This document shows, piece by piece, positions 15,339 to 61,071 of a DNA stretch of 64,000 bases (position 1 is the stretch's first letter; each line of letters opens with the position of its first letter). Below the pieces are notes generated by a model. It ran no database searches and was not told the origin of the DNA. It saw only the letters and a list, made by a program, of their open reading frames with translations. A program made the position numbers and the translations under genes. Source of the stretch: a virus (Duplodnaviria > Caudoviricetes); IMG/VR virus record IMGVR_UViG_3300028805_000037, positions 64,001 to 128,000 of that record; one strand, given 5' to 3'.

Positions 15339-16028
15339 TTAAAATGTTATTGATGTTGGTAAAACAGAAGCAACTGAAGATGTTAACATTCTACTTAGGT
15401 TTGGCTCAAATGTTTCTACTCTACCTACATCTACGTTTACATCTTGTTTAACTAATATATTTCCTGCATTTTGTAAATTATAAGAAATTGGATTATCTTT
15501 AATCCAACAGTTCCAATAATATGTTATTGATGTAACTTGTTTTCCTGATGTATCCCAGCCATCTACTCCGCTATGATCATAATTAATAACTTGAATATGT
15601 ATTGGTTTTTGTTGGTATAAAACATTTCCGCTAGTCATTCCAAATAAACCTAAGAACTCACCATTTGTTTCCAAAGTCTTTGTAATTTCTGCAATCTGTG
15701 AAGATTTAATTCCAAAAGATTCTAACTGTTGTGTCATTGGAAAACCGTAAGTATCTTTATATAATACAATCTTTGTAAGTGTTAATGTAGTTTCTATTTG
15801 ACCAGGAATAATATCTAAAGGTTCGAATGCGTGTTTACCTAAACTATAACGCCTTGTATTACGTCTATCGTTTCTTCTTTCTAAACGTTCAATTGTCCCT
15901 ATTGCTGCAGTTAGAGGAACTGTAAGATCTACACCTGCAATTTTTGTAGCAATAGGTAATACTACAAATATATCTGTTGCTGTAGCTAACATTCCTTCTG
16001 TATATGGTAAAGAACTTCTATCTGCCAT
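15339..16028 (-). CDS. Tail tube protein paralog 3
   Basis: IGTIERL...NDR...R.Y.LG....P.DIIPG......LT..KIVLY and NCWI motifs shared with the other tube paralogs. Confidence 0.75.
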   Translation of the reverse strand: MADRSSLPYTEGMLATATDIFVVLPIATKIAGVDLTVPLTAAIGTIERLERRNDRRNTRRYSLGKHAFEPLDIIPGQIETTLTLTKIVLYKDTYGFPMTQQLESFGIKSSQIAEITKTLETNGEFLGLFGMTSGNVLYQQKPIHIQVINYDHSGVDGWDTSGKQVTSITYYWNCWIKDNPISYNLQNAGNILVKQDVNVDVGRVETFEPNLSRMLTSSVASVLPTSITF

Positions 16029-16040
16029 TTAACACCTCAA

Positions 16041-16643
16041 TTATATTCTGGTATCTGTTTCAATCAAACCTGTTTTTGTTGAAATAACACCTGTAGCTAT
16101 ACAATTTACTCTCTGTATAATCATCATATCATTTGCTCTCTCAATAGAGAAATCCATATTATTATTGTCAAACCATACACCATAAATCATTATTGTTTTC
16201 GCACCTGTAGTTAAAGTCTTTCCGCCTTCACCCGCTCTTTCAACACCAGGAACATTTACATAAATCATTAACGGGGAATTTTGTTTCATAATATCATATG
16301 ATTTACTATAGCCAAATGCTTGTGCAATTGTTGATTCATATAAAACTACTCTCTCTAATTCCAATGAATACTCTGGTAAACCAGGAACAACTTCAACAGG
16401 TCTACCTGCAGTATCTATATTCAATTCTCTTCTATATTCTGCTTCTCTTTTTGTAATAATTTTAATTCTTTGTATCGCACCTACAGGTTTGTTCACATCT
16501 ATTTTACTAACTAAATTATTAATTATATTCTCTTGAGTTTTAAAAGTTGATCTCATTATAGTCCATGGAGCTGCATAAAGAGTAGCATATATCCTCGGGC
16601 GCATCTCTAGATCACGAAGTATATCATCTTGTTCTGCTGCCAT
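16041..16643 (-). CDS. Tail tube protein paralog 2
   Basis: VGAIQRI.I...R....RRELN..TAGRPVE..PGLP.Y.L.LERVVLY; IYGVWF. Confidence 0.75.
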   Translation of the reverse strand: MAAEQDDILRDLEMRPRIYATLYAAPWTIMRSTFKTQENIINNLVSKIDVNKPVGAIQRIKIITKREAEYRRELNIDTAGRPVEVVPGLPEYSLELERVVLYESTIAQAFGYSKSYDIMKQNSPLMIYVNVPGVERAGEGGKTLTTGAKTIMIYGVWFDNNNMDFSIERANDMMIIQRVNCIATGVISTKTGLIETDTRI

Positions 16644-16655
16644 ATGTTTATCCTC

Positions 16656-17900
16656 CTAATTAATTTTATTTATAAAGTCTTCTACTTCTTTTAAATTCCA
16701 AAATACTTTATAATTTAAGCTATTTTCTCTAGCTATTTTTAATTTTTGTGGATCTAATATAGTCCACACATATATTGCATTTATGTAAAATTGTATACCC
16801 TTACTTTTCCAAAACTCTAATATCTTCTGATGTTCTAAATTATCTTTATCGAATGACTCAGGACCGTGTGTAAAGTGTCCATTATACTCAATATATAAGT
16901 CTTTTGATTTAATATAAAAGTCACAACGATATGGATAAACTTTTGACCTATATTGACGTTCTATATCATCTTTAGTGAATTTAGTTAAGAGAAGTTGGTA
17001 AACTTTTTCTTCTGGTTCTGATGTACTAAATGTATTATTCCGTTTCTTTGTATTATATATTCTCTCTTGAATTTCATTAATTCGTAATCTATAATCTTTA
17101 GACTTCATATAACTACTTACACCATAACGTTTTAAACAAGTTTGCTTAGATTTTTGTTTATTCTCTTCCAATTGCAAATTTGTCTCTACACCATACTTTT
17201 CTAAATAACTTTGCCTAACTTTATTTTTAAAATCTTCAGATTTATTTTTATGTATATTTGCACAACTAATACAACAAAATTTTCCATACCCATTTATATC
17301 TGAAAACTTAATTTGCTTTCCACACTGCTTACAAGTAAAAACTTTATCTAGAGGAATATTTTTATGTAGCCTATAACGTAATTCAGATTTTGTTAAGTTA
17401 TATCTATTAAGAATATCTTTTACTTCCTGAACTGTAAAATACTTCTCCAAGTCTTGTAACTTCACTTTTCTATGTTTACGTATATAATCTTTCAATCCTT
17501 GAAAATTTAACTGTATTGGTTTTTTATTAAGACGTTTTTGCTTACGTGTTTCTAATAATTTATCTTTACAAACTTGTGTTTTTAAATAATTATCTACACC
17601 ATATTTCTTTAAACAAGTTTGTTTGCATCTATCTTTATAAACTTCTGTTTTACTATAATTGTCAACACCATATTTCTCTAAGCAGGCTTGCTTTACCTTA
17701 TCTCTATGTTCCAGGGACTTATTTATTATTGTCAAAGTACAAACTTTTGAACAAGCTGTAATAATATTCTTACCAACTTTTAAATACTTTATACGCGTTT
17801 TAATTTGCTTATCTGTATAATGAAATATTTTACCACAACATTGACAGACCTGTTCTTTAAATAATTCTGGAAATTGTTCTTTGACTTCCTGTTTACACAT
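16656..17900 (-). CDS. Free-standing Zn-ribbon / 23-aa-repeat / Vsr-EDxHD-like endonuclease (copy A)
   Basis: Two CxxCGK...CxxxC modules, 4 KQxCLxKYGV-type repeats, C-terminal S..E...RQY.S..YPY.CDFYI...DLYIEYNGHFTH...W...D..K. Confidence 0.8.
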   Translation of the reverse strand: MCKQEVKEQFPELFKEQVCQCCGKIFHYTDKQIKTRIKYLKVGKNIITACSKVCTLTIINKSLEHRDKVKQACLEKYGVDNYSKTEVYKDRCKQTCLKKYGVDNYLKTQVCKDKLLETRKQKRLNKKPIQLNFQGLKDYIRKHRKVKLQDLEKYFTVQEVKDILNRYNLTKSELRYRLHKNIPLDKVFTCKQCGKQIKFSDINGYGKFCCISCANIHKNKSEDFKNKVRQSYLEKYGVETNLQLEENKQKSKQTCLKRYGVSSYMKSKDYRLRINEIQERIYNTKKRNNTFSTSEPEEKVYQLLLTKFTKDDIERQYRSKVYPYRCDFYIKSKDLYIEYNGHFTHGPESFDKDNLEHQKILEFWKSKGIQFYINAIYVWTILDPQKLKIARENSLNYKVFWNLKEVEDFINKIN

Positions 17901-17990
17901 ATTATTTATCCTCCGATAAATAACTCAAAACAAAATATGGCAGGAGTGTGAGTTGCACTCTTTTCCCGTTGCAATCGGTAGCCATATAAA
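17901..17990 (-). ncRNA. Structured RNA leader (3-way junction + pseudoknot + SD hairpin), copy 1
   Basis: AUAUGGC-UA-CCG[7]CGG-GAAAA-GAGUG[CAACUCA]CACUC-CU-GCCAUAU...UGAGUUA-UUUAUC[GGAG]GAUAAA; covaries with copy 2. Confidence 0.8.
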
Positions 17991-18008
17991 CCTTATATTA
18001 AGTATGAT

Positions 18009-18027
18009 TATGATTATTTTGTCAAGG
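18009..18027 (-). promoter_or_regulatory. Conserved upstream element, copy 2 (CCTTGACA-AAAT-AATCATA)
   Basis: One mismatch to the consensus; lies just upstream of RNA leader copy 1. Confidence 0.7.
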
Positions 18028-18050
18028 ATGGTTTTTGAAGATTTACAATA

Positions 18051-18635
18051 TCATCTGTTTCCAACAATTCCTGCAGCACGAGCTCTGCAATTCTGTATTA
18101 TTTTAATATCATCAACATTATCGACACCAAATTCAATGTTGGAATCCAAAAACCAAACACCGTAAATATACCAGGTTTTTGTTAATAACTGATCGCTACT
18201 TGTTTTATCTTCATCATCAGGGCAAATTAAATTTATTTTTATTAATAAAGGTCTTGTCTGTTTCGATATATCTAAACTATCATCTACATCTGAATAAAAT
18301 TCATCTGATACCATTGAATCATAAAGAACAATTCTATCTAAAGACAAATCATAGCCAGGTAACCCAGGATAAGATTCTACCGGTCTACCTGCAGTTTTAT
18401 AATCAAGTTCTCTCCAAATATTTAATTGTCTTTCATTTGTAATCTCTAAATTTTGGATTGCACCAATCTGTTTTCCATTAGCAGCAGCTTCAACAAGTCT
18501 ATTATATAATTCTGTAGGTTTTGTAAAATCTGTACCTGTAAAATTAAATGGCACACTATATATTTCTATATAGGCTTTGTATGCTGTTTTTAAACCCTTT
18601 ATTAGACTGTTTTTATAATCTCCAGTAACTGCCAT
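18051..18635 (-). CDS. Tail tube protein paralog 1
   Basis: IGAIQNL.I...RQL..WRELD..TAGRPVE.YPGLP.Y.L.LDRIVLY; IYGVWF; first tube gene after the sheath. Confidence 0.8.
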   Translation of the reverse strand: MAVTGDYKNSLIKGLKTAYKAYIEIYSVPFNFTGTDFTKPTELYNRLVEAAANGKQIGAIQNLEITNERQLNIWRELDYKTAGRPVESYPGLPGYDLSLDRIVLYDSMVSDEFYSDVDDSLDISKQTRPLLIKINLICPDDEDKTSSDQLLTKTWYIYGVWFLDSNIEFGVDNVDDIKIIQNCRARAAGIVGNR

Positions 18636-18647
18636 ATATTATCCTCC

Positions 18648-19901
18648 TTAATTAATTTTTCTAATCCAATCTTCAACTTCCTCTATATTCCAAAATATCT
18701 TGTAATTCAATTTATTCTTTTTAAATGTTTCTAATTTTCTCGCATCTAAATCTGTCCAAACATAGATTGCAGTTCGAAAGAACTTGCTTTTTTTAGATTT
18801 AACTTGCCAACTGCTCAATATATTAAGATGTTCTAAATTATTCTTATCAAAAGATTCTTTTCCGTGTGTCCAATGCCCATTATATTCAATATATAAATCT
18901 AGGCTCTTAATATAAAAATCACATTGATAAGGATATAATTCATTTTTATATTGTCTAATAATATCTTCTTTACCAAACTTAGTTAATAATAGTTGATACG
19001 TTTTTTCTTCAAATTTAGATTTATTATATGTATTATTTTGCTTCTTAGTACTCCATTGTTTCTCTAAGATTATAGCTTTATGTTCTTTATAGAAATCCCT
19101 ATATTCTTGAGTTTGTGTATAATTTTCTACACCATATCTTTCTAGGTTTGTTTTGCGCTGCTTTTCATTAATCTTTTCCACATCTAATTTATATTTCTTT
19201 GATTTCTGAAAACTCGTTGCTCCAAACTTATCTAAACAGGTCTGCTTTACCTTATCTTTATATTCTTTGGTTTGTGAATAATAATCTACACCATACTTAT
19301 CTTTACATGTCTGGTTTGATTTTTTAATATAGTCGTCTGTCTGCGTGTAATGTTTTTTTCCGAAATTCTCCAAGTTTGTTAATTCTCTTTGCTGTTGAAT
19401 CAAATATTTATTGTCCTGCATATATTTTCTATGCTGATCTGATTGAGAATAATATTCAGTTCCATACTTCTCTAAGCATGTCTGTTTATATTTATCTTTA
19501 TAATCTTGTGTTTTTAAATAACTATCTACACCATATTTATTTAAACATGTTTGTTTTATTTTATCTCGACATTCTTTTGTTTTTGCATAACTTGTAGTAT
19601 TATATTTTCTTAAACAAGTTTGTTTAACTTTATTTACATGTTCTTGTGATTTATTCATACAACTCATTGAACAATATGTTTGATATCCACCATGCGTACG
19701 TTTAAATTTAATAATCTTTCCACAAGTTTTACATTTGAATACTTTATCAAAAGAAATATCATGTTTAATTCTATAACATAATTCTTTTATGGATAACTTA
19801 TAAAAAATTGCTGTAGCTTCAACTTCTTTCGTTATGTATTTTTTTATAACTTTGTTATAAAATTGTTTATGACTTTTTATATACTTAACTAATTCTTCCA
19901 T
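18648..19901 (-). CDS. Free-standing Zn-ribbon / 23-aa-repeat / Vsr-EDxHD-like endonuclease (copy B)
   Basis: CKTCGK...YCSMSC, about 7 KQTCLxKYG-type repeats, CDFYI...DLYIEYNGHWTH...WTDLD..K. Confidence 0.8.
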   Translation of the reverse strand: MEELVKYIKSHKQFYNKVIKKYITKEVEATAIFYKLSIKELCYRIKHDISFDKVFKCKTCGKIIKFKRTHGGYQTYCSMSCMNKSQEHVNKVKQTCLRKYNTTSYAKTKECRDKIKQTCLNKYGVDSYLKTQDYKDKYKQTCLEKYGTEYYSQSDQHRKYMQDNKYLIQQQRELTNLENFGKKHYTQTDDYIKKSNQTCKDKYGVDYYSQTKEYKDKVKQTCLDKFGATSFQKSKKYKLDVEKINEKQRKTNLERYGVENYTQTQEYRDFYKEHKAIILEKQWSTKKQNNTYNKSKFEEKTYQLLLTKFGKEDIIRQYKNELYPYQCDFYIKSLDLYIEYNGHWTHGKESFDKNNLEHLNILSSWQVKSKKSKFFRTAIYVWTDLDARKLETFKKNKLNYKIFWNIEEVEDWIRKIN

Positions 19902-19990
19902 CTCTATACTCCTATAGATTAACTCAATTTTTATATTTACGGCAGGGTAGTGAGTTGCTACCTTTTCGGTTGATCTGACCTAGCCGTATT
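19902..19990 (-). ncRNA. Structured RNA leader, copy 2
   Basis: UACGGC-UA-GGU[7]ACC-GAAAA-GGUAG[CAACUCA]CUACC-CU-GCCGUA...UGAGUUA-A-UCUAUA[GGAG]UAUAGA-G-AUG. Confidence 0.8.
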
Positions 19991-20001
19991 TATTTTTAAT
20001 A

Positions 20002-22056
20002 TTAAGCGTTTTGGAAAGTTACTCCGAATGTTACTAAAATGTAGTTAACATCAGGTGTTGGATATATTCTAAATGATACATTAATTTGATTTGGATAATT
20101 TTGATCTTGCGCAATTACTAAGTTCGTATACGAATAAATATCGTTGTTTGCTAGGAAACTTGAAAGTATAGTATTAACTGTAGCTGTCATTTCTGATATT
20201 GTAGCTGCTCCAACAAATCTTGTATTTATATATGCTTTATCTAAAGCAAGTCTTAATGTATTTGATATAACGTCTTTTATTTTTGTAATCTTAATTTCAG
20301 ATTTTACATAATCACCTGTAGATGTTGAGAGTGCATGTCTTATTTTTGCTACTGATGTTCCTTCTGCGCCTTCAAGAACTAAACATCCATAAGATGCTAA
20401 TACATTCTTTTCTTCTCTTGTATACCTATCATTTACAGTAACATTCGATAATGTTTTACCTGTTATAGGTTCACCACAAGTAAAGTTATTATTACAGATA
20501 ATACCAGCAATAGCTGCTGCAGCATACATACCATTAGCAACTGCTACTGTTCCTGTATCTAACGTAACCGATACTTGACCTGGTGTTACATAAACAACTC
20601 TTGCAGAATTTGCAGACGCAGCATCTTTTTTATAAGTTTCAATTGCGGTATCATAATCTTCCGTTTCAATTAAAGCGTTATTTGAAACAATCGCAATTCT
20701 TTCTTTTCTTTCAAGAGTTGAACTCATATTCTCAACATGTGTTTTGCACATACTTATAATCTGAGCCATCGTTATACTGTTATCAGGATCGTTCTCAATT
20801 TCAAACGGTGATATCATAGGCAATATACAATATGCATTTATTTTAGTAGCTTGTCTAAGAGCAGTAGATAATCCAGCTGCATCTATAAGTCCAGTTGTTT
20901 CATTAACTTCAGGCTGAATACAATAGAAAACTCTTGCACCATTATCATAAGCAACTTGTGCACCTGCAGAAATTGTATTCTCAGCAGAAGGCTCACCATA
21001 AACAGAATAAATACTTGAGAGTCTTGTATAAGATTTTGGTTCTCTATCTGCAGTATTTTTTGCTACTGTATAACTAACTGTGATTTTATACTTCCCATCT
21101 GGACCTTCAACTGGCATATCCCCATCTGGAGCTTTCCATAATAATACAGAATTTTCTACTGCAAAAAAATCTTTCTCTGAATTATCATAAACTCTACTAC
21201 TTATTGCATCTACAGCTTCAGAAGGTGCTACTACAATTTCTGGTTGCAATTGTGCAGAATAATAAGTAGCATTAGGATCTACAATTTTCCAATTCGTATT
21301 TAAATAATTTATATTTGCTTCACTAGGTGAAGTATGATCTTTTATACATTCATAAAATAAAGCATTTAAATATATAAAATCTCCAACAACATAATCTGTT
21401 TCAGGAGTCCATACTTTATAATGTATCGTTGTTTCTTCTGTATCAGTACTTATCCAATAATCAAATATAGCTTCATCTACTCCGTCTTCTAAAACACTAG
21501 CATTTTCATCTAACCATGGAGTTACTAAACTACTTACTGCTACATCTTCTGTAATCTCAGAAGCGTTAGCTTCTAACCAATCAGCAACAGGTTCGGTAAC
21601 TGTACCTGCAGTTGTAACACTATAATATTTATCATTATAAAATAATATATCACCTACTTCACAAGTAGTTCCATCTTCAGGATCTATTGCTGCTGGGATA
21701 GTTCCTTCTGAATTAACAATATAATAACTTTCTCCAAAACTTATTACTTGTGATTGACTATAAAACTCTCCTGGTATAGCTTGTGCAGCTTCAGGTGTAC
21801 TCGTTGTTGTAACTTTATAATAAGTATCATTGTAATAAACTATAGAACCTGCTTCATATTCTGTACCAATTACAGGTACAGTAGGTCTTTCAATTGGAGG
21901 TAATAACTCCAATAGTTCATTACTTATTGATTTTGTTTCTTTACCTTTACCGATAATACATACAGATAATAAACCTGTATTAACGTCTGTAGATATATCG
22001 TCATTGATTACGACATATGTACCTGGCTCTGTGTAATTATTTGTAAATGATGGCAT
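20002..22056 (-). CDS. Tail sheath protein with inserted CBM5/12-like repeats
   Basis: N-terminal YTEPGTYV; C-terminal ERIAIV, AAAAIAG, IRHALST, I.VSFRIYP...VNYI.VTF sheath motifs; four Y..GD.(I/V).Y....Y-like repeats. Confidence 0.9.
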   Translation of the reverse strand: MPSFTNNYTEPGTYVVINDDISTDVNTGLLSVCIIGKGKETKSISNELLELLPPIERPTVPVIGTEYEAGSIVYYNDTYYKVTTTSTPEAAQAIPGEFYSQSQVISFGESYYIVNSEGTIPAAIDPEDGTTCEVGDILFYNDKYYSVTTAGTVTEPVADWLEANASEITEDVAVSSLVTPWLDENASVLEDGVDEAIFDYWISTDTEETTIHYKVWTPETDYVVGDFIYLNALFYECIKDHTSPSEANINYLNTNWKIVDPNATYYSAQLQPEIVVAPSEAVDAISSRVYDNSEKDFFAVENSVLLWKAPDGDMPVEGPDGKYKITVSYTVAKNTADREPKSYTRLSSIYSVYGEPSAENTISAGAQVAYDNGARVFYCIQPEVNETTGLIDAAGLSTALRQATKINAYCILPMISPFEIENDPDNSITMAQIISMCKTHVENMSSTLERKERIAIVSNNALIETEDYDTAIETYKKDAASANSARVVYVTPGQVSVTLDTGTVAVANGMYAAAAIAGIICNNNFTCGEPITGKTLSNVTVNDRYTREEKNVLASYGCLVLEGAEGTSVAKIRHALSTSTGDYVKSEIKITKIKDVISNTLRLALDKAYINTRFVGAATISEMTATVNTILSSFLANNDIYSYTNLVIAQDQNYPNQINVSFRIYPTPDVNYILVTFGVTFQNA

Positions 22057-22071
22057 TTATATATCCTCCAA

Positions 22072-22278
22072 TTAATAAATTTTTATTATTCTAATTAATT
22101 TTTTTCCTGCATATTCTTTAACTTGCTTTGTATAAGCTACAACCTTGATCTCATTTGTTTTCAAATTAAAGTCTTTATAACATAAATCTCCAAACGTAAT
22201 ATTTTGTATTAACGCTTGTTTAACAGTAGGTTGTATTGTAGAAACAGACTCAACCACTTTACTTTTCCTTCTAACCAT
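22072..22278 (-). CDS. Small hypothetical protein (start MVRRK)
   Basis: GGAGG SD upstream of ATG at 22278. Confidence 0.6.
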   Translation of the reverse strand: MVRRKSKVVESVSTIQPTVKQALIQNITFGDLCYKDFNLKTNEIKVVAYTKQVKEYAGKKLIRIIKIY

Positions 22279-23533
22279 TACTCTCCTCCGTATAAAAATT
22301 GCCAAAATTAAAATATTTATTTACCAATTTTAAACTGCATTCTTTTCGTTTATTGTTTTCCTTCACTACAACATACTTTAAATGACTCATTGTTATTGCA
22401 TTGTATCTCTTATTATTTATTACTACTAAATCTTTTGGTTGTATTTTATATCTTTGCTTTCTAATACCTGGCTTAAAACCTCTCCTGTTACACTGTAAAG
22501 ATCTATTGTTTCTATGTTTTTGTTTTAATTCTATAGGTTTCACTCTGTTTTGAACACTACCACCTGCTATACAAAAAGCATCGTTATAATGTGTTTTCTT
22601 TAACCCTAATTCTAGTCTTTGCTGCTTCGTTATATATCCAAATGTTTCGTACATATCAGGTATATCTTTTTGAAATCTTTTATGTATAATTGACATAAAT
22701 GTATTTGATTTATACTCTTTACTACTTTTTCTGATACTAAATTTATTTTTATGTAAATCTTTATGACATTTACTGCATAAAGTTATTAGATTGTCTGGTC
22801 TATCAGTACCACCCTGACTTCTAAATTTTATGTGATGAACTTCTAATCTTGTGTTTTGTTTACCGCAATGCTGACAAGTTCTTTTATCTCTTGTTAATAC
22901 ATATTGTTTTACATTCTCAAACTCCAATTGTTTTCCTTGTTGATATTCTTTACCTTTAATATTAAGATTTTGTATTTTTTGTATATCAAAATTTGCTGTT
23001 TCTATTATCACATTATTGGTAGGAAGTATTAATTTAATTCGTTTTATAAGCTCTAAATGTGTTTGATAACGTCTCTCTATAGAAGGTGGTAACCAACCAA
23101 CATGTCTTTTCCTATTATTAAATCTAGATTCTCTATACCAATGATGCCTACATCTTCTTCCTTTTCTATACAACTTTCTCTCTAATAATCTCATTTTAGT
23201 TTTATTATCCAAAACCAAAGTACCACTTATTAGCTCTTTCTTACTACTTACCGCACTAAACCCAATGTTCTCATAACCGCTATCAATACCTAGTGTAACT
23301 TCTTGTTTACAGTCTCTCGTTTGAACCAACATCTGAATAACAAAGAAAGGATATGTTTTAACTATTCTTGCTAAACCTTTCTTTATCAATCGTTTAGCTT
23401 TACAAGGTGTTGTTGGCATTAAAGGTTGCCCTTTTACATTGAGGACGAAAACATAAGTTTTCCTCTCAATCCTGTTAGGCTCAGGTAGATTCACATCGGA
23501 GTTGTTACAAGTCAGAGTATCTCTTCTACACAC
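22271..23533 (-). CDS. iscB: IscB RNA-guided endonuclease (PLMP, split RuvC, HNH); start codon uncertain
   Basis: GQPLMPT; RuvC-I LGIDSG; Arg-rich bridge helix; RuvC-II IIETANFD; HNH CQHCG..LEVHHI....GGTD...NL.TLC..CH; RuvC-III HYNDAFCI. Confidence 0.95.
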   Translation of the reverse strand: MCRRDTLTCNNSDVNLPEPNRIERKTYVFVLNVKGQPLMPTTPCKAKRLIKKGLARIVKTYPFFVIQMLVQTRDCKQEVTLGIDSGYENIGFSAVSSKKELISGTLVLDNKTKMRLLERKLYRKGRRCRHHWYRESRFNNRKRHVGWLPPSIERRYQTHLELIKRIKLILPTNNVIIETANFDIQKIQNLNIKGKEYQQGKQLEFENVKQYVLTRDKRTCQHCGKQNTRLEVHHIKFRSQGGTDRPDNLITLCSKCHKDLHKNKFSIRKSSKEYKSNTFMSIIHKRFQKDIPDMYETFGYITKQQRLELGLKKTHYNDAFCIAGGSVQNRVKPIELKQKHRNNRSLQCNRRGFKPGIRKQRYKIQPKDLVVINNKRYNAITMSHLKYVVVKENNKRKECSLKLVNKYFNFGNFYTEESNG

Positions 23534-23714
23534 TGTGCCTTTAGGCTCGTTTTAATGTAGAAGTTATAAAGCTACGAACTTGTGAAGCATCCGTAGGTAT
23601 GTTCTTTTTCTTTCCTTGTAACTGCTGTTTTAACATTACTGTTATAACCTCCTAATCAGCTCTTTCGTTGTAATTCTCATTACAAACCGATAACTTTAAT
23701 TATCGGTAGCTGAC
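22290..23714 (-). mobile_element. Non-autonomous IS200/IS605-family IscB (OMEGA) element; right end approximate
   Basis: omegaRNA + iscB with no tnpA; left end overlaps the last codons of the upstream gene. Confidence 0.75.
23460..23714 (-). ncRNA. omegaRNA / HEARO-type RNA of IscB
   Basis: 5' GTCAGCTACC...AGCTGATTAG closing stem, internal hairpin ACCGATAAT/GTTATCGGT, HEARO-like ACCTACGGATGCTTCACAAGT and CCGATGTGAA segments. Confidence 0.85.
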
Positions 23715-27671: not shown

Positions 27672-27701
27672 ACTATCACCACTATTTAAATTTAGAATAA
27701 T

Positions 27702-27720
27702 TATGATAAAATTGTCAAGG
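27702..27720 (-). promoter_or_regulatory. Conserved upstream element, copy 3 (CCTTGACA-ATTT-TATCATA)
   Basis: Exact consensus. Confidence 0.75.
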
Positions 27721-37621: not shown

Positions 37622-37651
37622 ATATAAAAACTCCTATTGTTTTACTCATAT

Positions 37652-37670
37652 TATGATATAAATGTCAAGG
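37652..37670 (-). promoter_or_regulatory. Conserved upstream element, copy 4 (CCTTGACA-TTTA-TATCATA)
   Basis: Exact consensus. Confidence 0.75.
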
Positions 37671-37672
37671 GT

Positions 37673-38677
37673 TTATTCAGTAATATATTTCCATTTATAA
37701 CCATAAGCAGATTTTCTTTTATTTTGACAACATAATGATATTTTACCACAACAATTTTTTGCGTTAATACCTAAAGCATTGCACGCTTCTTTTAAAGAAT
37801 TGTACTTAGCTTTAACTTCACCATCTATTGTATATTGTACCACTGCTTTTCTGTAAGGGGATTGCATCTTATTATTTATAAAATCTAAGCGTTCTTGAAT
37901 ACTATTTCCCTTATATAACCAAATATATTTATATGCAGATGATTGACTACCTTCGCAACTTGCACTTATGCAGCGCCTAACAGTCATTAAGTTCTTGTTT
38001 AATTTTGAGTTAAAAACTTTTGCAGCTTCTGTTATTGTAGAATATATCTTAACTAACTTACCGTCTAAAGTATACTGTGCTACTTCTCTTGTAATAGAAC
38101 TTAAATGTAAATCATGAACTTTATGTACTCGTTTAAGTCTATCTTCTATATTATTATCATACAACCAAATATAACCACCAGCTGTAGTGTATTCTCCGCG
38201 ACAACACAAGTCTATTGCTTTTACTCCAGTAGCTCTTCTGGCGTCAGACATACTATACCAAGTCTTTATAAAATTTCCTTGAAGATCATATTGAAATACT
38301 TTCTTTGCAACTGGACTTTTAAAACCTTTATTTACTCCAATATTAATATCACTTAATTTTTTACGTGTCTCATATGAAACTTCTCGGCTATTTGCAATTC
38401 CGCCATGATCTATATTATAACCAAACTCTCTTTGATCACTTTTATATAACTTTATTAACTCCTTTTCTTTCTGTGAAGCTTCATCATAAGATAAATTACT
38501 AAATAAAATTTCATGTTTTATGTTATTCCAACCATATTTATTAATCGCATATGTTAAATAAGAGTTAGTTTTATATGCACGCCCTTTACGCCAACGTCTT
38601 TCAACGTTTTGTCTTGTAACACCTATATAAATCTTATTTGATGGAGTTGTAAATTTATATACTTTATAATTATTCAT
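37673..38677 (-). CDS. GIY-YIG homing endonuclease with three NUMOD1/IENR1-like repeats
   Basis: YKVY....PSNKIYIG.T.....RRW..G; E..LI...GYN; 3x V.QY..DG...K.Y.S..EA.........I...C.......GY.W.Y. Confidence 0.9.
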   Translation of the reverse strand: MNNYKVYKFTTPSNKIYIGVTRQNVERRWRKGRAYKTNSYLTYAINKYGWNNIKHEILFSNLSYDEASQKEKELIKLYKSDQREFGYNIDHGGIANSREVSYETRKKLSDINIGVNKGFKSPVAKKVFQYDLQGNFIKTWYSMSDARRATGVKAIDLCCRGEYTTAGGYIWLYDNNIEDRLKRVHKVHDLHLSSITREVAQYTLDGKLVKIYSTITEAAKVFNSKLNKNLMTVRRCISASCEGSQSSAYKYIWLYKGNSIQERLDFINNKMQSPYRKAVVQYTIDGEVKAKYNSLKEACNALGINAKNCCGKISLCCQNKRKSAYGYKWKYITE

Positions 38678-56129: not shown

Positions 56130-56167
56130 ATAAAAAACTCCTAATAAATATTTAAAAATCTAGATAT

Positions 56168-56186
56168 TATGATAAAAATGTCAAGG
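56168..56186 (-). promoter_or_regulatory. Conserved upstream element, copy 7 (CCTTGACA-TTTT-TATCATA)
   Basis: Exact consensus. Confidence 0.75.
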
Positions 56187-59400: not shown

Positions 59401-59525
59401 AAGTCTCTAAAAGAAATTGGATCTTCGTTCCAAACTTTATTATCTGTTTTAAAAATTTTATCTATATCACCGAGTGCAGAATTACATAACTGCTGCCTAA
59501 TCGATGCAGAACTTCTATTTGTCAT
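56442..59525 (-). CDS. terL: Terminase large subunit containing an intein
   Basis: Walker A GKGAGKD, Walker B FFVCDE, RNase H-like IDLG..SD, FDQWNS, VDHP..G|SKD.AD. Confidence 0.92.
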   Translation of the reverse strand: MTNRSSASIRQQLCNSALGDIDKIFKTDNKVWNEDPISFRDFVISKNHMNFVPLSERQYAPSDFLFGNDPKKIFDNGNTTAILAYGKGAGKDTITSLLMCYAVYVLLCLRSPQKFLNLPEGEAIDLLNVAVNAQQASGVFFEKFKQRLIRWQWLRDKYPVKFSGSFLGQARIDDILNTVTITQNAAIFPNNIRAISGHSGANSQEGKNILFFVCDEIAGFDETPATNKGITIFNMMKSSAISRFGNRHKGVALSFTRYEGDAILKLYEQGQSELHWFCDKACTWEVKPAHCFKDYPQKYFEFQGHKIPLEYQSEFKADPENAKTKYMCMPSSISSIFIEKPEKIRACIDPNRLPLVDTQDYEEDGYVKKLITNYNISRTDIDYTITIDLGLRSDSAALSIFHTESTTTGLKAIQDLMLSWVPNPEKKLEVSMHNVKQFLVDISKHIHINRVYFDQWNSALLIEQLNELHIPSEEYRLNFADYKHAKEMMYEGRVSLQPSERLQEEFRRLILTRAKRVDHPSDGCFTGDTQIKLLNGTCKTMKELADAGSDKEFWVYACKSDGTIVPAKAYNAHETKKVNTLCKVILDNNKSFTCTPNHLIMLRNGTYIQAKDLKKDDSIMPLRCSYWGNYEILKDNKTNKSQATHKMVYKYFNGDYDITNEVIHHYDLNPRNNTPENLELLTRSEHAERHKQLCKLSLQKVKQRTLTRLKRDNLNPERIQKRAEALKVFYQTEEGKNSRKLAVQKSMIKRNSEEGKLNAFIGVEKRKAIWNARTVEEKQQIIDKGKETFRKNKELGLHKKISTNDIYWKSKEGKTRRLELSKTQLRDASKIYYEQAKQLRHNDLNTLLKDKNLDFKHCVSYKNLAQQLGIKPKGNNNRVVHALSERYVDINFKQNLVESFKEGLNISDISKLFKCPVQTLKYYIHKYNLDYLLHKNMKDYNHKVISVELIQVSDTPVYDITVPGFNNFALASGVFVHNSKDLADTVVGAIKILLTKKALNNNINMEGGIYIQDNLSSIGGTIIGQQG
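56592..57956 (-). mobile_element. Intein (455 aa) with HNH homing endonuclease
   Basis: CFTGDT start, CTPNH block B, VYDITV...NNF...GVFVHN|S end; internal HH.D.NPRNN...NL......EH...H. Confidence 0.92.
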
Positions 59526-60214
59526 TATTCGTTTTCCTTTATTATTTTTTCATCATTCATTGACTCTTCTTGTGCTACTTCCATATTTAAACTACTTGAT
59601 TCATTCATTAAAGCTTGTTTAAATAGTCTACTAAATTGTTCATACCTATCTGGACAAATTTGTAAAACAATATTAGAAACGGTTTGTAACAGAAACTTTG
59701 TTTCTTTTTTTACAAGCTCATCAAGTTTAGCTTGCTGTGAAGCTAAATCTGCTGTAAGCTGTACAATTGTCTTAACATAATTTCTCGCTTCAGATATATA
59801 AGCAAGTATTTGTTTTTCAACCATCATATCAGGAACTCTATTACTTGCTTGCTGATGTTCTAATGCAGATTCTCTTAATAAACACTTACCCATTAAACCT
59901 TGTAATACTTTTACATTACTATAATTAAGCTCTTGTCTACCTTTAATTTGTGTAAGTAATCTATCAAGCTCTGTCAATCCTTCATTAAACTCTCTGCTAA
60001 TTTCTGTTTTATTTGTCTGTAAAGTAATTGCAGTATTTTTTGATTGATACTGTTTTCTATATAAAGATATTGCGTCTAACGATGGTACTGTTACCACGTT
60101 ACTGTAATTATCTTTTATAAATTGTTGTATAACACGTACAGATGCTCCACTATCAATCTTTTGATTAAGTGCTTCTAAAACATCTGCAGGGTATTGAAAT
60201 ATATGTGAAGCCAT
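59525..60214 (-). CDS. Putative terminase small subunit
   Basis: Coupled upstream of terL; HTH-like N-terminus followed by helices. Confidence 0.5.
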   Translation of the reverse strand: MASHIFQYPADVLEALNQKIDSGASVRVIQQFIKDNYSNVVTVPSLDAISLYRKQYQSKNTAITLQTNKTEISREFNEGLTELDRLLTQIKGRQELNYSNVKVLQGLMGKCLLRESALEHQQASNRVPDMMVEKQILAYISEARNYVKTIVQLTADLASQQAKLDELVKKETKFLLQTVSNIVLQICPDRYEQFSRLFKQALMNESSSLNMEVAQEESMNDEKIIKENE

Positions 60215-61009: not shown

Positions 61010-61052
61010 AAAATACTCTCCTTATATTAAAAACTATCTTAAAAACTGTAAT

Positions 61053-61071
61053 TATGATAGTTTTGTCAAGG
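61053..61071 (-). promoter_or_regulatory. Conserved upstream element, copy 8 (CCTTGACA-AAAC-TATCATA)
   Basis: Exact consensus; marks the start of the morphogenesis region. Confidence 0.75.

What the first reader, a model, noticed from the sequence alone, without database searches (positions are those of the whole stretch)
17901..19990. Covarying structured RNA leader coupled to repeat-array nucleases (candidate new cis-regulatory RNA-nuclease module)
Seen: two ~90-nt leaders (17901-17990, 19902-19990, minus strand) sit directly before nuclease copies A and B. Unpaired nucleotides are identical (UA, GAAAA, loop CAACUCA, CU, UGAGUUA, SD loop GGAG), while every stem differs yet stays paired: P1 UAUGGC/GCCAUA vs UACGGC/GCCGUA; P2 CCG/CGG vs GGU/ACC (7-nt loops); P3 GAGUG/CACUC vs GGUAG/CUACC; SD hairpin UUUAUC/GAUAAA vs UCUAUA/UAUAGA. 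The P3 loop AACUCA is complementary to downstream UGAGUU, which overlaps (copy 1) or abuts (copy 2) the base of the SD hairpin. Inference: a three-way junction plus pseudoknot that gates translation of a toxic nuclease (autoregulation, a protein/ligand sensor, or a processed RNA that works with the nuclease). I cannot assign it to a named Rfam family.
Basis: partly seen in the sequence, partly recalled or inferred. Interest (0 to 1): 0.9.

Follow-up and report, generated by a model that had tools for sequence, protein, structure and literature searches.

The report
Known int-alpA leader on homing-endonuclease cassettes
Two real, covarying folded RNA leaders sit in front of two selfish DNA-cutting-enzyme genes inserted in a giant phage's tail operon; they are divergent members of the already catalogued but functionally unexplained RNA family int-alpA, and their anatomy points to control of translation start.

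Summary
Both ~90-nt leaders exist as described: a three-way junction, a P3-loop pseudoknot, and a hairpin with GGAG in its loop just before the start codon.

The RNA is not a new class. Copy B matches Rfam int-alpA (RF02996) at 34.8 bits against a cut-off of 35.8. The orthologous leader in a related phage passes at 37.3. A model built from 96 relatives scores both window copies at 55-56 bits.

The family is large: more than 120 viral contigs, and prophages in at least five phyla. Stems P1-P3, the pseudoknot and the SD hairpin all covary.

A related phage has the same sheath, tube1 and tube2 genes without either insert, so leader plus nuclease gene is one mobile cassette.

The leader is not specific to these nucleases. 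It precedes at least six unrelated endonuclease families, and also methylases, primases, an integrase and small ORFs. This argues against autoregulation by the nuclease or a guide-RNA role.

Family-wide, the P3 loop matches both a "parking" site and the SD region. Most likely this is a portable, cis-acting leader that limits or gates translation initiation; no function has been tested.

This scan has already reported int-alpA-type leaders before endonuclease genes in other genomes.

The parts
19935..19991 (-). Leader B core: three-way junction. P1 19988-19983/19943-19938; UA; P2 19980-19978/19970-19968; GAAAA 19967-19963; P3 19962-19958/19950-19946 with loop CAACUCA 19957-19951; CU.
   Evidence: Sequence. 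Rfam int-alpA 34.8 bits, E 1e-4. Own model R1 55.2 bits.
19920..19926 (-). Leader B site 1 (UGAGUUA), the pseudoknot partner of the P3 loop.
   Evidence: Sequence. Family-wide loop/site-1 covariation.
19903..19918 (-). Leader B SD hairpin UCUAUA-GGAG-UAUAGA. SD GGAG is at 19912-19909; the start codon is at 19901-19899.
   Evidence: Covariation in the subfamily.
18648..19901 (-). Homing endonuclease B, 417 aa, DUF7487 / phrog_3339.
17933..17989 (-). Leader A core: P1 17987-17981/17941-17935; UA; P2 17978-17976/17968-17966; GAAAA 17965-17961; P3 17960-17956/17948-17944 with loop CAACUCA 17955-17949; CU.
   Evidence: Sequence. R1 56.3 bits. MFE equals this fold. No Rfam hit reported.
17921..17927 (-). 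Leader A site 1 (UGAGUUA). Its last 4 nt can instead join the extended SD hairpin.
17901..17924 (-). Leader A SD hairpin. The core is 17920-17905 (UUUAUC-GGAG-GAUAAA) and it can extend to 10 bp (17924-17901). SD is at 17914-17911; the start codon is at 17900-17898.
   Evidence: Most structured RBS of 48 genes in the window.
16656..17900 (-). Homing endonuclease A, 414 aa, DUF7487 / phrog_3339, 42% identical to B.
18007..18025 (-). Phage-type promoter-like motif TTGACA-N7-CATAAT, 20 nt upstream of leader A. It lies inside the inserted segment.
   Evidence: 5 copies on the minus strand of the window against 0.05 expected. Absent from the empty site in L249.
18648..20001 (-). Insert 1 (leader B + HEG B), between the tail-sheath stop (20004-20002) and the SD of tube gene 1.
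   Evidence: Related phage L249 has 19 nt here.
16656..18050 (-). Insert 2 (promoter-like motif + leader A + HEG A), between the tube gene 1 stop (18053-18051) and the SD of tube gene 2.
   Evidence: Related phage L249 has 17 nt here.

Best explanation
The two elements are divergent, AT-rich members of the Rfam family int-alpA (RF02996). Each is the 5' leader of a free-standing homing-endonuclease gene, and leader plus gene form one mobile cassette that has been inserted into the short spacers between the tail-sheath, tube-1 and tube-2 genes. The leader acts in cis on translation start. A compact three-way junction holds out the P3 loop, which pairs with a 'parking' site (site 1) in the 3' tail. 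Directly after site 1, a short hairpin carries the Shine-Dalgarno sequence in its loop and ends 1-4 nt before the AUG in these two copies (mostly 2-6 nt family-wide). The result is an unusually structured ribosome-binding site that does not depend on its surroundings. It most likely keeps production of the nuclease low. In many relatives, where the P3 loop also matches the SD region, it could toggle between an SD-free and an SD-masked state. Shown here: family membership, the fold, the pseudoknot, the SD hairpin, and cassette mobility. Inferred: the effect on translation and its direction.
For: Identity: copy B scores 34.8 bits against int-alpA. Relatives L118 (the leader of a nuclease 54% identical to B) and L121 pass the cut-off at 37.3 and 42.3 bits. 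Model R1, built from 96 sequences, scores A and B at 56.3 and 55.2 bits. Fold: 14 of 15 core pairs change on both sides; 90% of cells pair against 71% in shuffles, 0/500. Pseudoknot: among 49 distinct P3 loops, the own site 1 pairs over 5.1 bp on average against 3.3 bp for permuted loops (p 2e-18). The own SD region pairs over 5.1 against 3.9 bp (p 1e-12). The two duplexes are nearly iso-energetic, -5.6 and -6.2 kcal/mol. SD hairpin: it is present in 72 of 73 distinct tails and starts 0-1 nt after site 1. In the CAACUCA subfamily, 94% of cells pair against 53% in shuffles, and 6/6 pairs have double changes. RBS structure in the window: HEG A ranks 1st and HEG B 8th of 48 genes, at -8.6 and -4.0 kcal/mol against a median of -0.8. 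Cis position: the start codon lies 35-44 nt after the junction in 76 of 97 cases. The same tail occurs in Rfam-defined Enterobacteriaceae members. Mobility: L249 lacks both inserts. L129 carries a leader+HEG cassette where the window has overlapping genes. Precedent: T-even HEGs are held down by RNA structures at the RBS (PMC2988022).
Against: Window copy A gets no Rfam hit, and copy B falls 1 bit below the curated cut-off. In the window's own subfamily the SD loop is only 4 nt and matches the P3 loop over 3-4 bp, so a two-state switch is doubtful for these two copies. An SD shown in a loop could in principle help ribosome capture rather than hinder it. The family sample was drawn with sequence patterns that fix the junction and much of P1. 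Junction invariance in my alignments is therefore partly by construction. Independent support comes only from the Rfam consensus and a few unselected hits.
Confidence: 0.6

Rival explanations
1. A sensor switch (riboswitch-like, or binding a protein or the ribosome). The conserved junction binds a universal factor, and binding decides whether the P3 loop parks on site 1 or masks the SD.
For: The junction bases UA / GAAAA / CU are highly conserved in the independent Rfam consensus. The motif is found in five or more phyla. The loop:site-1 and loop:SD duplexes are near iso-energetic.
Against: The junction has only 9 unpaired nt. Unselected hits vary GAAAA to GAAGA, GAAAC or GAAUA. Downstream genes are selfish or accessory genes with no shared metabolite logic. 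No rRNA-like match to the model was found in a bacterial genome. In the window's subfamily the alternative SD pairing is weak.
Confidence: 0.12
2. An mRNA end-protection, insulation or processing element with no direct effect on initiation. A base-paired 5' end stabilises the transcript, or the fold marks a cut that frees the cassette mRNA from the operon transcript (possibly self-cleavage).
For: A -10-like box ends 5-9 nt before P1 in 52 of 96 upstream regions, peaking at -7, so many RNAs would start at the first P1 base. Upstream ORFs usually end 5-26 nt before P1.
Against: This does not explain why the P3 loop covaries with a tail site and with the SD region, nor the fixed spacing to the start codon. 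The hammerhead CUGAUGA core is absent. No ribozyme family was hit. The window copies lack a good -10 box at the usual distance.
Confidence: 0.12
3. A trans-acting small RNA, as Rfam types int-alpA, whose anti-SD-like loop targets other mRNAs.
For: Rfam labels the family 'Gene; sRNA'. A few Enterobacteriaceae copies have no ORF of 40 aa or more behind them.
Against: The loop covaries with its own tail. No terminator lies between the fold and the start codon. The orientation and distance to the next gene are constant.
Confidence: 0.05
4. A nuclease-specific partner: an operator bound by the encoded nuclease, or an RNA cofactor or guide.
For: In the CAACUCA subfamily all 13 distinct copies (two in the window, 11 in other phages) precede endonuclease genes.
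Against: Those endonucleases belong to three unrelated families. Family-wide, the leader also precedes methylases, primases, an integrase, a TnpB-like transposase, DUF551 and small unknown ORFs. Other DUF7487 paralogues in the same genome lack this RNA.
Confidence: 0.03
5. A DNA-level element, such as an endonuclease target, a recombination site or a single-strand DNA hairpin.
For: The reverse strand folds about as well.
Against: G-U pairs outnumber A-C mismatches 79 to 42 on the gene's sense strand. The pairing involves the SD of the next gene. The empty sites in L249 and in the window contain no trace of the element.
Confidence: 0.02

Closest known systems
Rfam RF02996, int-alpA RNA motif (typed sRNA; from my own recollection it comes from Weinberg et al. 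2017, PMC5737381, whose main text does not name it and whose supplement was not readable here)
   Same: A three-way junction with UA / GAAAA / CU strands, a short P2, and a P3 whose loop pairs with the 3' tail. Phage or prophage setting. The near-threshold Rfam score of copy B, the passing orthologue and the own-model scores are given under membership.
   Different: AT-rich stems and a 7-nt CAACUCA loop. The window copies fall at or below the curated cut-off. Here the next genes are homing endonucleases rather than int or alpA neighbours. My data indicate a cis leader rather than an sRNA.
RBS-sequestering hairpins of T-even homing endonucleases (I-TevI, I-TevII, I-TevIII, segB, Aeh1 mobE; reviewed in PMC2988022)
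   Same: An RNA structure at the ribosome-binding site of a selfish endonuclease gene placed inside a phage operon. The presumed purpose is to keep the enzyme scarce.
   Different: No sequence or fold relationship. Those are simple hairpins with the SD in the stem, relieved by a late promoter inside the hairpin. Here the SD is in a loop, a junction and a pseudoknot lie upstream, and any -10 box lies upstream of the whole fold.
Pseudoknotted translational operators such as E. coli rpsO (S15) and T4 gene 32 leaders (from general knowledge, not tested here)
   Same: A hairpin loop pairs with sequence next to the SD and forms a pseudoknot at the initiation region.
   Different: Those bind the encoded protein. 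Here the encoded proteins are too diverse for that.
The other ~125-nt pseudoknotted endonuclease leader in this same genome (scan notes e1-5525391, e1-5525370)
   Same: A leader RNA in front of DUF7487/Hef-type endonuclease cassettes in the same phage.
   Different: It is a different RNA. Model R1 finds only the two copies at 17933-17989 and 19935-19991 in the whole 300-kb record.

Membership tests
Rfam RF02996 int-alpA | Covariance-model score at or above the curated gathering score (35.8 bits). | tested here: inconclusive
   Copy B scores 34.8 bits, E 1e-4. Copy A gives no hit even in a 141-nt search. The orthologous leaders L118 and L121 score 37.3 and 42.3 bits, and 10 of the 12 int-alpA hits in the 20 related loci pass.
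Rfam RF02996 int-alpA | Three-way junction with conserved strands UA, GAAAA and CU, and helices P1, P2 and P3. | tested here: met
   Sequence. Alignment to the Rfam consensus. 14 of 15 pairs covary across 99 distinct sequences.
Rfam RF02996 int-alpA | Homology link to sequences that pass the Rfam threshold. | tested here: met
   One model (R1) scores the window copies at 55-56 bits, and scores Rfam-passing loci such as L121, L118, L144 and L165 at 62-66 bits.
Rfam RF02996 int-alpA | P3 loop paired to the 3' tail next to the start of the following gene. | tested here: met
   Window: AACUCA/UGAGUU. Family. The same holds in Rfam-defined Enterobacteriaceae members.
Rfam RF02996 int-alpA | Neighbourhood of integrase or alpA genes (the source of the name). 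| tested here: not met
   The next genes here are DUF7487 endonucleases in a tail operon. This is a context feature, not a structural one. In my sample only 1 of 77 downstream genes is an integrase.
T-even type HEG RBS hairpin control | SD enclosed by a hairpin, plus an internal late promoter that yields transcripts lacking the inhibitory arm. | tested here: not met
   The SD hairpin is present. No promoter lies inside the fold, and the family's -10 box lies upstream of P1. It works alike in outline but is not a member.
Hammerhead ribozyme | CUGAUGA and GAAA core strands around a three-way junction. | tested here: not met
   GAAAA is present but the J1/2 strand is only UA. No Rfam ribozyme hit.
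tRNA / tRNA-like RNA | Cloverleaf recognised by ARAGORN or the Rfam tRNA model. | tested here: not met
   No gene found in 16000-21000. No Rfam tRNA hit.
HEARO / omega RNA of IscB (guide RNA of a nuclease) | Match to RF02033 next to an IscB gene. | tested here: not met
   HEARO is found at 23485-23714 beside an IscB ORF, not at the two leaders.
Riboswitch | Specific ligand binding that changes the expression platform. | not testable with these tools
   Only indirect evidence is available: a conserved junction, but no coherent gene set.

The most novel reading that the evidence does not exclude
int-alpA is not an sRNA. It is a host-independent, portable translation governor. An intramolecular anti-SD-like loop can sit on a parking site (SD free) or on the SD itself (SD masked). 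Selfish phage genes (homing endonucleases, methylases, TnpB) carry it with them across bacterial phyla. It may work as a timer, or as a sensor of ribosome or cell state.
Probability: 0.3. Interest if true: 0.7.

Novelty: new member of a known kind. Interest (0 to 1): 0.4.

Why it matters
int-alpA is an orphan Rfam motif with no assigned function. This locus and its relatives show three things. The motif travels with homing-endonuclease genes as one insertable unit. It always sits at a fixed distance before a start codon. Its variable loop covaries with a parking site and, in many members, with the SD region. Together these give a concrete, mutable model for what the motif does, testable with simple reporter constructs. 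They also suggest a natural context-independent expression module that selfish genes use when they land inside essential phage operons. For this window taken alone, the result is mainly a re-assignment: a presumed new RNA class turns out to be a divergent member of a catalogued one.

Tried and rejected
- Group I intron: no Rfam intron hit in the window, and the flanking genes are intact in the insert-free relative.
- Hammerhead, tRNA-like and HEARO: see the membership rows.
- rRNA mimicry: model R1 finds only noise outside the prophage copy in a Citrobacter genome.
- A second pseudoknot from the P2 loop: no consistent complement seen by eye.
- The CTTAATAT box shared by both copies as a promoter: it is not enriched in the window, 7 copies against 12 expected, and matches TATAAT at only 4/6.
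- The CAACUCA-loop pattern in bacterial genomes: 4 hits, none confirmed by R1, so chance.
- The first loose pattern scan: 116 or more hits, nearly all chance; only L047 was real.
- megablast of the region against GenBank phages: no match.
- PDB sequence search with nuclease B: no match.
- Supplement of Weinberg et al. 2017: not held, so I could not read the original description of int-alpA.
- Literature searches found no functional study.
Full report
**Observation.** On the minus strand, two ~90-nt stretches end at the start codons of two ORFs, 16656-17900 and 18648-19901. Each has a closing helix P1, the bases UA, a 3-bp P2 with a 7-nt loop, GAAAA, a 5-bp P3 with loop CAACUCA, CU, and the 3' strand of P1. 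A linker follows, then UGAGUUA, a 6-bp hairpin with GGAG as its loop, and the AUG.
- Between the two copies the unpaired bases are identical, while 7 of 14 core pairs and 2 of 6 hairpin pairs are changed on both sides.
- A pattern of the junction bases finds exactly these two sites in the window, with 0 expected.
- The minimum-energy fold of copy A is the proposed fold (z -3.05). It has a 10-bp SD hairpin that competes for the last 4 nt of UGAGUUA.
- Copy B folds less distinctly on its own.

**What the genes are.** Both ORFs carry DUF7487 repeats and match the PHROG 'homing endonuclease' family phrog_3339. They are 42% identical to each other.
- They lie between the tail sheath gene (20002-22056, phrog_2839) and two paralogous 194-aa and 200-aa genes (18051-18635 and 16041-16643, 37% identical). 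From their position I take these to be tail-tube genes.
- The window is part of a 300-kb IMG/VR phage record.

**The RNA is a catalogued family.**
- cmscan gives one hit in the region: copy B against int-alpA (RF02996), 34.8 bits, E 1e-4, with a gathering score of 35.8. The junction bases CUAG, CGAAAAG and CCUG align exactly. Copy A is not reported.
- Pattern scans of IMG/VR, using the junction bases with free stems, gave 12 loci with the same CAACUCA loop.
- Among 20 short loci, int-alpA gave 12 hits, 10 above its gathering score. These include L121 (42.3 bits) and L118 (37.3 bits). L118 is the leader of a DUF7487 nuclease 54% identical to nuclease B.
- A covariance model built from 96 of these sequences (R1) scores window copies A and B at 56.3 and 55.2 bits. 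It finds no third copy in the 300-kb record.
- I therefore file both as divergent AT-rich members of int-alpA.
- No paper in the searchable library assigns this motif a function. I could not read the supplement of the discovery paper.

**Anatomy across the family.**
- Core helices: on the model-based alignment of 99 distinct sequences, 14 of 15 core pairs show changes on both sides. 90% of cells pair, against 71% in shuffles and 36-57% with slid partners.
- P1 caveat: P1 and the junction were partly fixed by my search patterns. Four unselected hits show P1 variants (GCGGC, GUGCC, AUGGC) and J2/3 variants (GAAGA, GAAAC, GAAUA) with the same overall design.
- Pseudoknot: the P3 loop is variable, with 49 distinct loops. 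It pairs with a site in the linker ('site 1') over 5.1 bp on average, against 3.3 bp for loops swapped between unrelated members (p 2e-18).
- SD region: the same loop also matches the SD region of its own gene better than swapped loops do, 5.1 against 3.9 bp (p 1e-12). The two duplexes are about equally strong, -5.6 and -6.2 kcal/mol.
- Site 1 resembles the SD region but is a poor partner for the 16S 3' end, -2.2 against -6.6 kcal/mol.
- SD hairpin: a hairpin starts 0-1 nt after site 1. It holds the SD in its loop or partly in its stem and, family-wide, mostly ends 2-6 nt before the start codon. It is predicted in 72 of 73 distinct tails.
- In the CAACUCA subfamily this hairpin pairs in 94% of cells, against 53% in shuffles. 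All six pairs have double changes and the GGAG loop is invariant.
- The start codon lies 35-44 nt after the junction in 76 of 97 cases.
- The same tail design is seen in members found with the Rfam model alone, in 17 of 151 Enterobacteriaceae genomes. These include the top scorers at 57-67 bits.
- Strand: G-U pairs outnumber A-C mismatches 79 to 42, which favours an RNA on the gene's sense strand.

**Upstream.**
- A -10-like hexamer (at least 5/6 matches, with A2 and T6) ends 5-9 nt before the first base of GUGGC in 52 of 96 distinct upstream regions. It peaks sharply at -7. It is equally frequent whether or not an upstream ORF ends nearby. Many family members therefore probably start transcription at P1.
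- The window copies differ. Leader A lies 20 nt behind a phage-specific motif TTGACA-N7-CATAAT, of which there are five minus-strand copies against 0.05 expected. Leader B has no evident promoter and starts 13 nt after the sheath stop codon, so it may be read through from the sheath transcript.

**Mobility.**
- A related phage contig, L249 (75-88% nucleotide identity), has sheath, tube-1 and tube-2 genes separated by 19 and 17 nt, with neither leader nor nuclease.
- The window therefore carries two precise intergenic inserts, 20001-18648 and 18050-16656. Each ends with the nuclease stop codon abutting or overlapping the SD of the next tail gene.
- Conversely, contig L129 carries a leader+DUF7487 cassette where the window has two genes overlapping in TAATG at 59525.
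- L126 carries such a cassette at a site that the window fills with a GIY-YIG endonuclease gene.
- Leader and nuclease gene therefore move together.

**What lies downstream elsewhere.**
- All 11 distinct loci with the CAACUCA loop outside the window (L129 duplicates L118) precede endonucleases of three unrelated families: DUF7487/phrog_3339, NUMOD4+HNH_3, and phrog_374/3377.
- Of 77 non-redundant downstream proteins in the wider sample, at least 41 are endonucleases of six or more families.
- The rest include DUF551 proteins, two primases, a C5 methylase, another methyltransferase, an integrase, a TnpB-like transposase and many small unknown ORFs.
- In Enterobacteriaceae the top Rfam scorers precede ~310-aa proteins of unknown family.
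- Confirmed copies occur in Proteobacteria, Firmicutes, Bacteroidota, Planctomycetota and a Marinimicrobia MAG.

**How it most likely works.**
- The fixed position before a start codon, the pairing of the variable loop with the gene's own tail, and the SD hairpin all point to control of translation initiation in cis.
- In this window the two nuclease RBS regions are among the most structured of 48 genes: rank 1 and rank 8, at -8.6 and -4.0 kcal/mol against a median of -0.8. This fits the known need to keep homing endonucleases scarce (PMC2988022).
- I therefore favour a portable leader that gives a low, context-independent initiation rate.
- In many relatives the loop can pair equally well with site 1 or with the SD region. 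This suggests a toggle in which site 1 keeps the loop away from the SD.
- For the two window copies that alternative is weak: 3-4 bp, with a 4-nt SD loop. In copy A the competition is instead between the pseudoknot and a longer SD hairpin that reaches the base before the AUG.
- These functional steps are inference. No expression data could be obtained.

**Rivals.**
- A ligand- or factor-sensing switch remains possible because the junction is so conserved across phyla. However, the junction is tiny and the gene set has no common logic.
- A pure stabiliser, insulator or processing role fits the promoter position but not the loop/tail covariation.
- A trans-acting sRNA (Rfam's label) fits poorly with the constant cis arrangement.
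- Autoregulation by the nuclease, or a guide-like role, is contradicted by the variety of downstream proteins and by DUF7487 paralogues in the same genome that lack this RNA.
- A DNA-level role is disfavoured by the strand asymmetry and the clean empty sites.

**Novelty and standing.**
- What is new for this locus is the assignment, the cassette structure shown by insert-free relatives, and two further covarying members that help define an AT-rich subfamily tied to homing endonucleases.
- After I had reached this reading, a look-up showed that this scan had already reported int-alpA-type leaders before endonuclease genes, with the same 'parking site or SD' idea, in several other genomes. My analysis agrees with those notes, but they are not independent evidence.

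**Limits.**
- The family sample was gathered with sequence patterns and is therefore biased towards particular P1 and junction sequences.
- Gene calls downstream are heuristic.
- E-values from model R1 are rough.
- The pseudoknot tests are my own permutation tests, not R-scape.

Noticed in passing
window 22271-23714 (-): An IscB gene (RRXRR + HNH, 420 aa, 22271-23533) with a HEARO/omega RNA (RF02033, 87.2 bits, 23485-23714). It is embedded between structural genes just upstream of the tail sheath gene.
   Followed up: partly
window 18007-18025, 27700-27718, 37650-37668, 56166-56184, 61051-61069 (all -): The motif TTGACA-N7-CATAAT occurs five times on the minus strand (0.05 expected). It is probably a phage-specific promoter with non-sigma70 spacing. 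One copy lies inside insert 2.
   Followed up: partly
window 37673-38677 (-): A 334-aa ORF that begins with a GIY-YIG-like motif (KIYIGVT...) followed by repeats; I read it as a GIY-YIG homing endonuclease from the sequence alone. It occupies the intergenic site where the related contig L126 carries an int-alpA leader plus a DUF7487 endonuclease. Two different selfish genes therefore sit at the same site.
   Followed up: partly
window 59525-59565: An empty site. Two genes overlap in TAATG here, whereas the related contig L129 (2875-3953) has a leader+DUF7487 cassette inserted exactly between them.
   Followed up: yes
window 16041-16643 and 18051-18635 (-): Two paralogous putative tail-tube genes (37% identity) sit in tandem. 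They are also tandem in the insert-free relative L249.
   Followed up: partly
G000 141806-142195, 263464-263839, 297036-298034 (outside the window): Further DUF7487-type endonuclease paralogues in the same 300-kb record have no int-alpA-type leader. Earlier scan notes describe a different ~125-nt leader there.
   Followed up: no
window 20002-22056 (-): The tail sheath protein carries a CBM_5_12 carbohydrate-binding module at residues 216-246 (E 1e-8).
   Followed up: no
L318, L321, L328, L330, L331 (Enterobacteriaceae genomes): An int-alpA subfamily with CUAU instead of CUAG at the junction. It has no ORF of 40 aa or more behind it, and one genome holds several copies. It may lead a very small ORF, or be a stand-alone or decayed form.
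   Followed up: no
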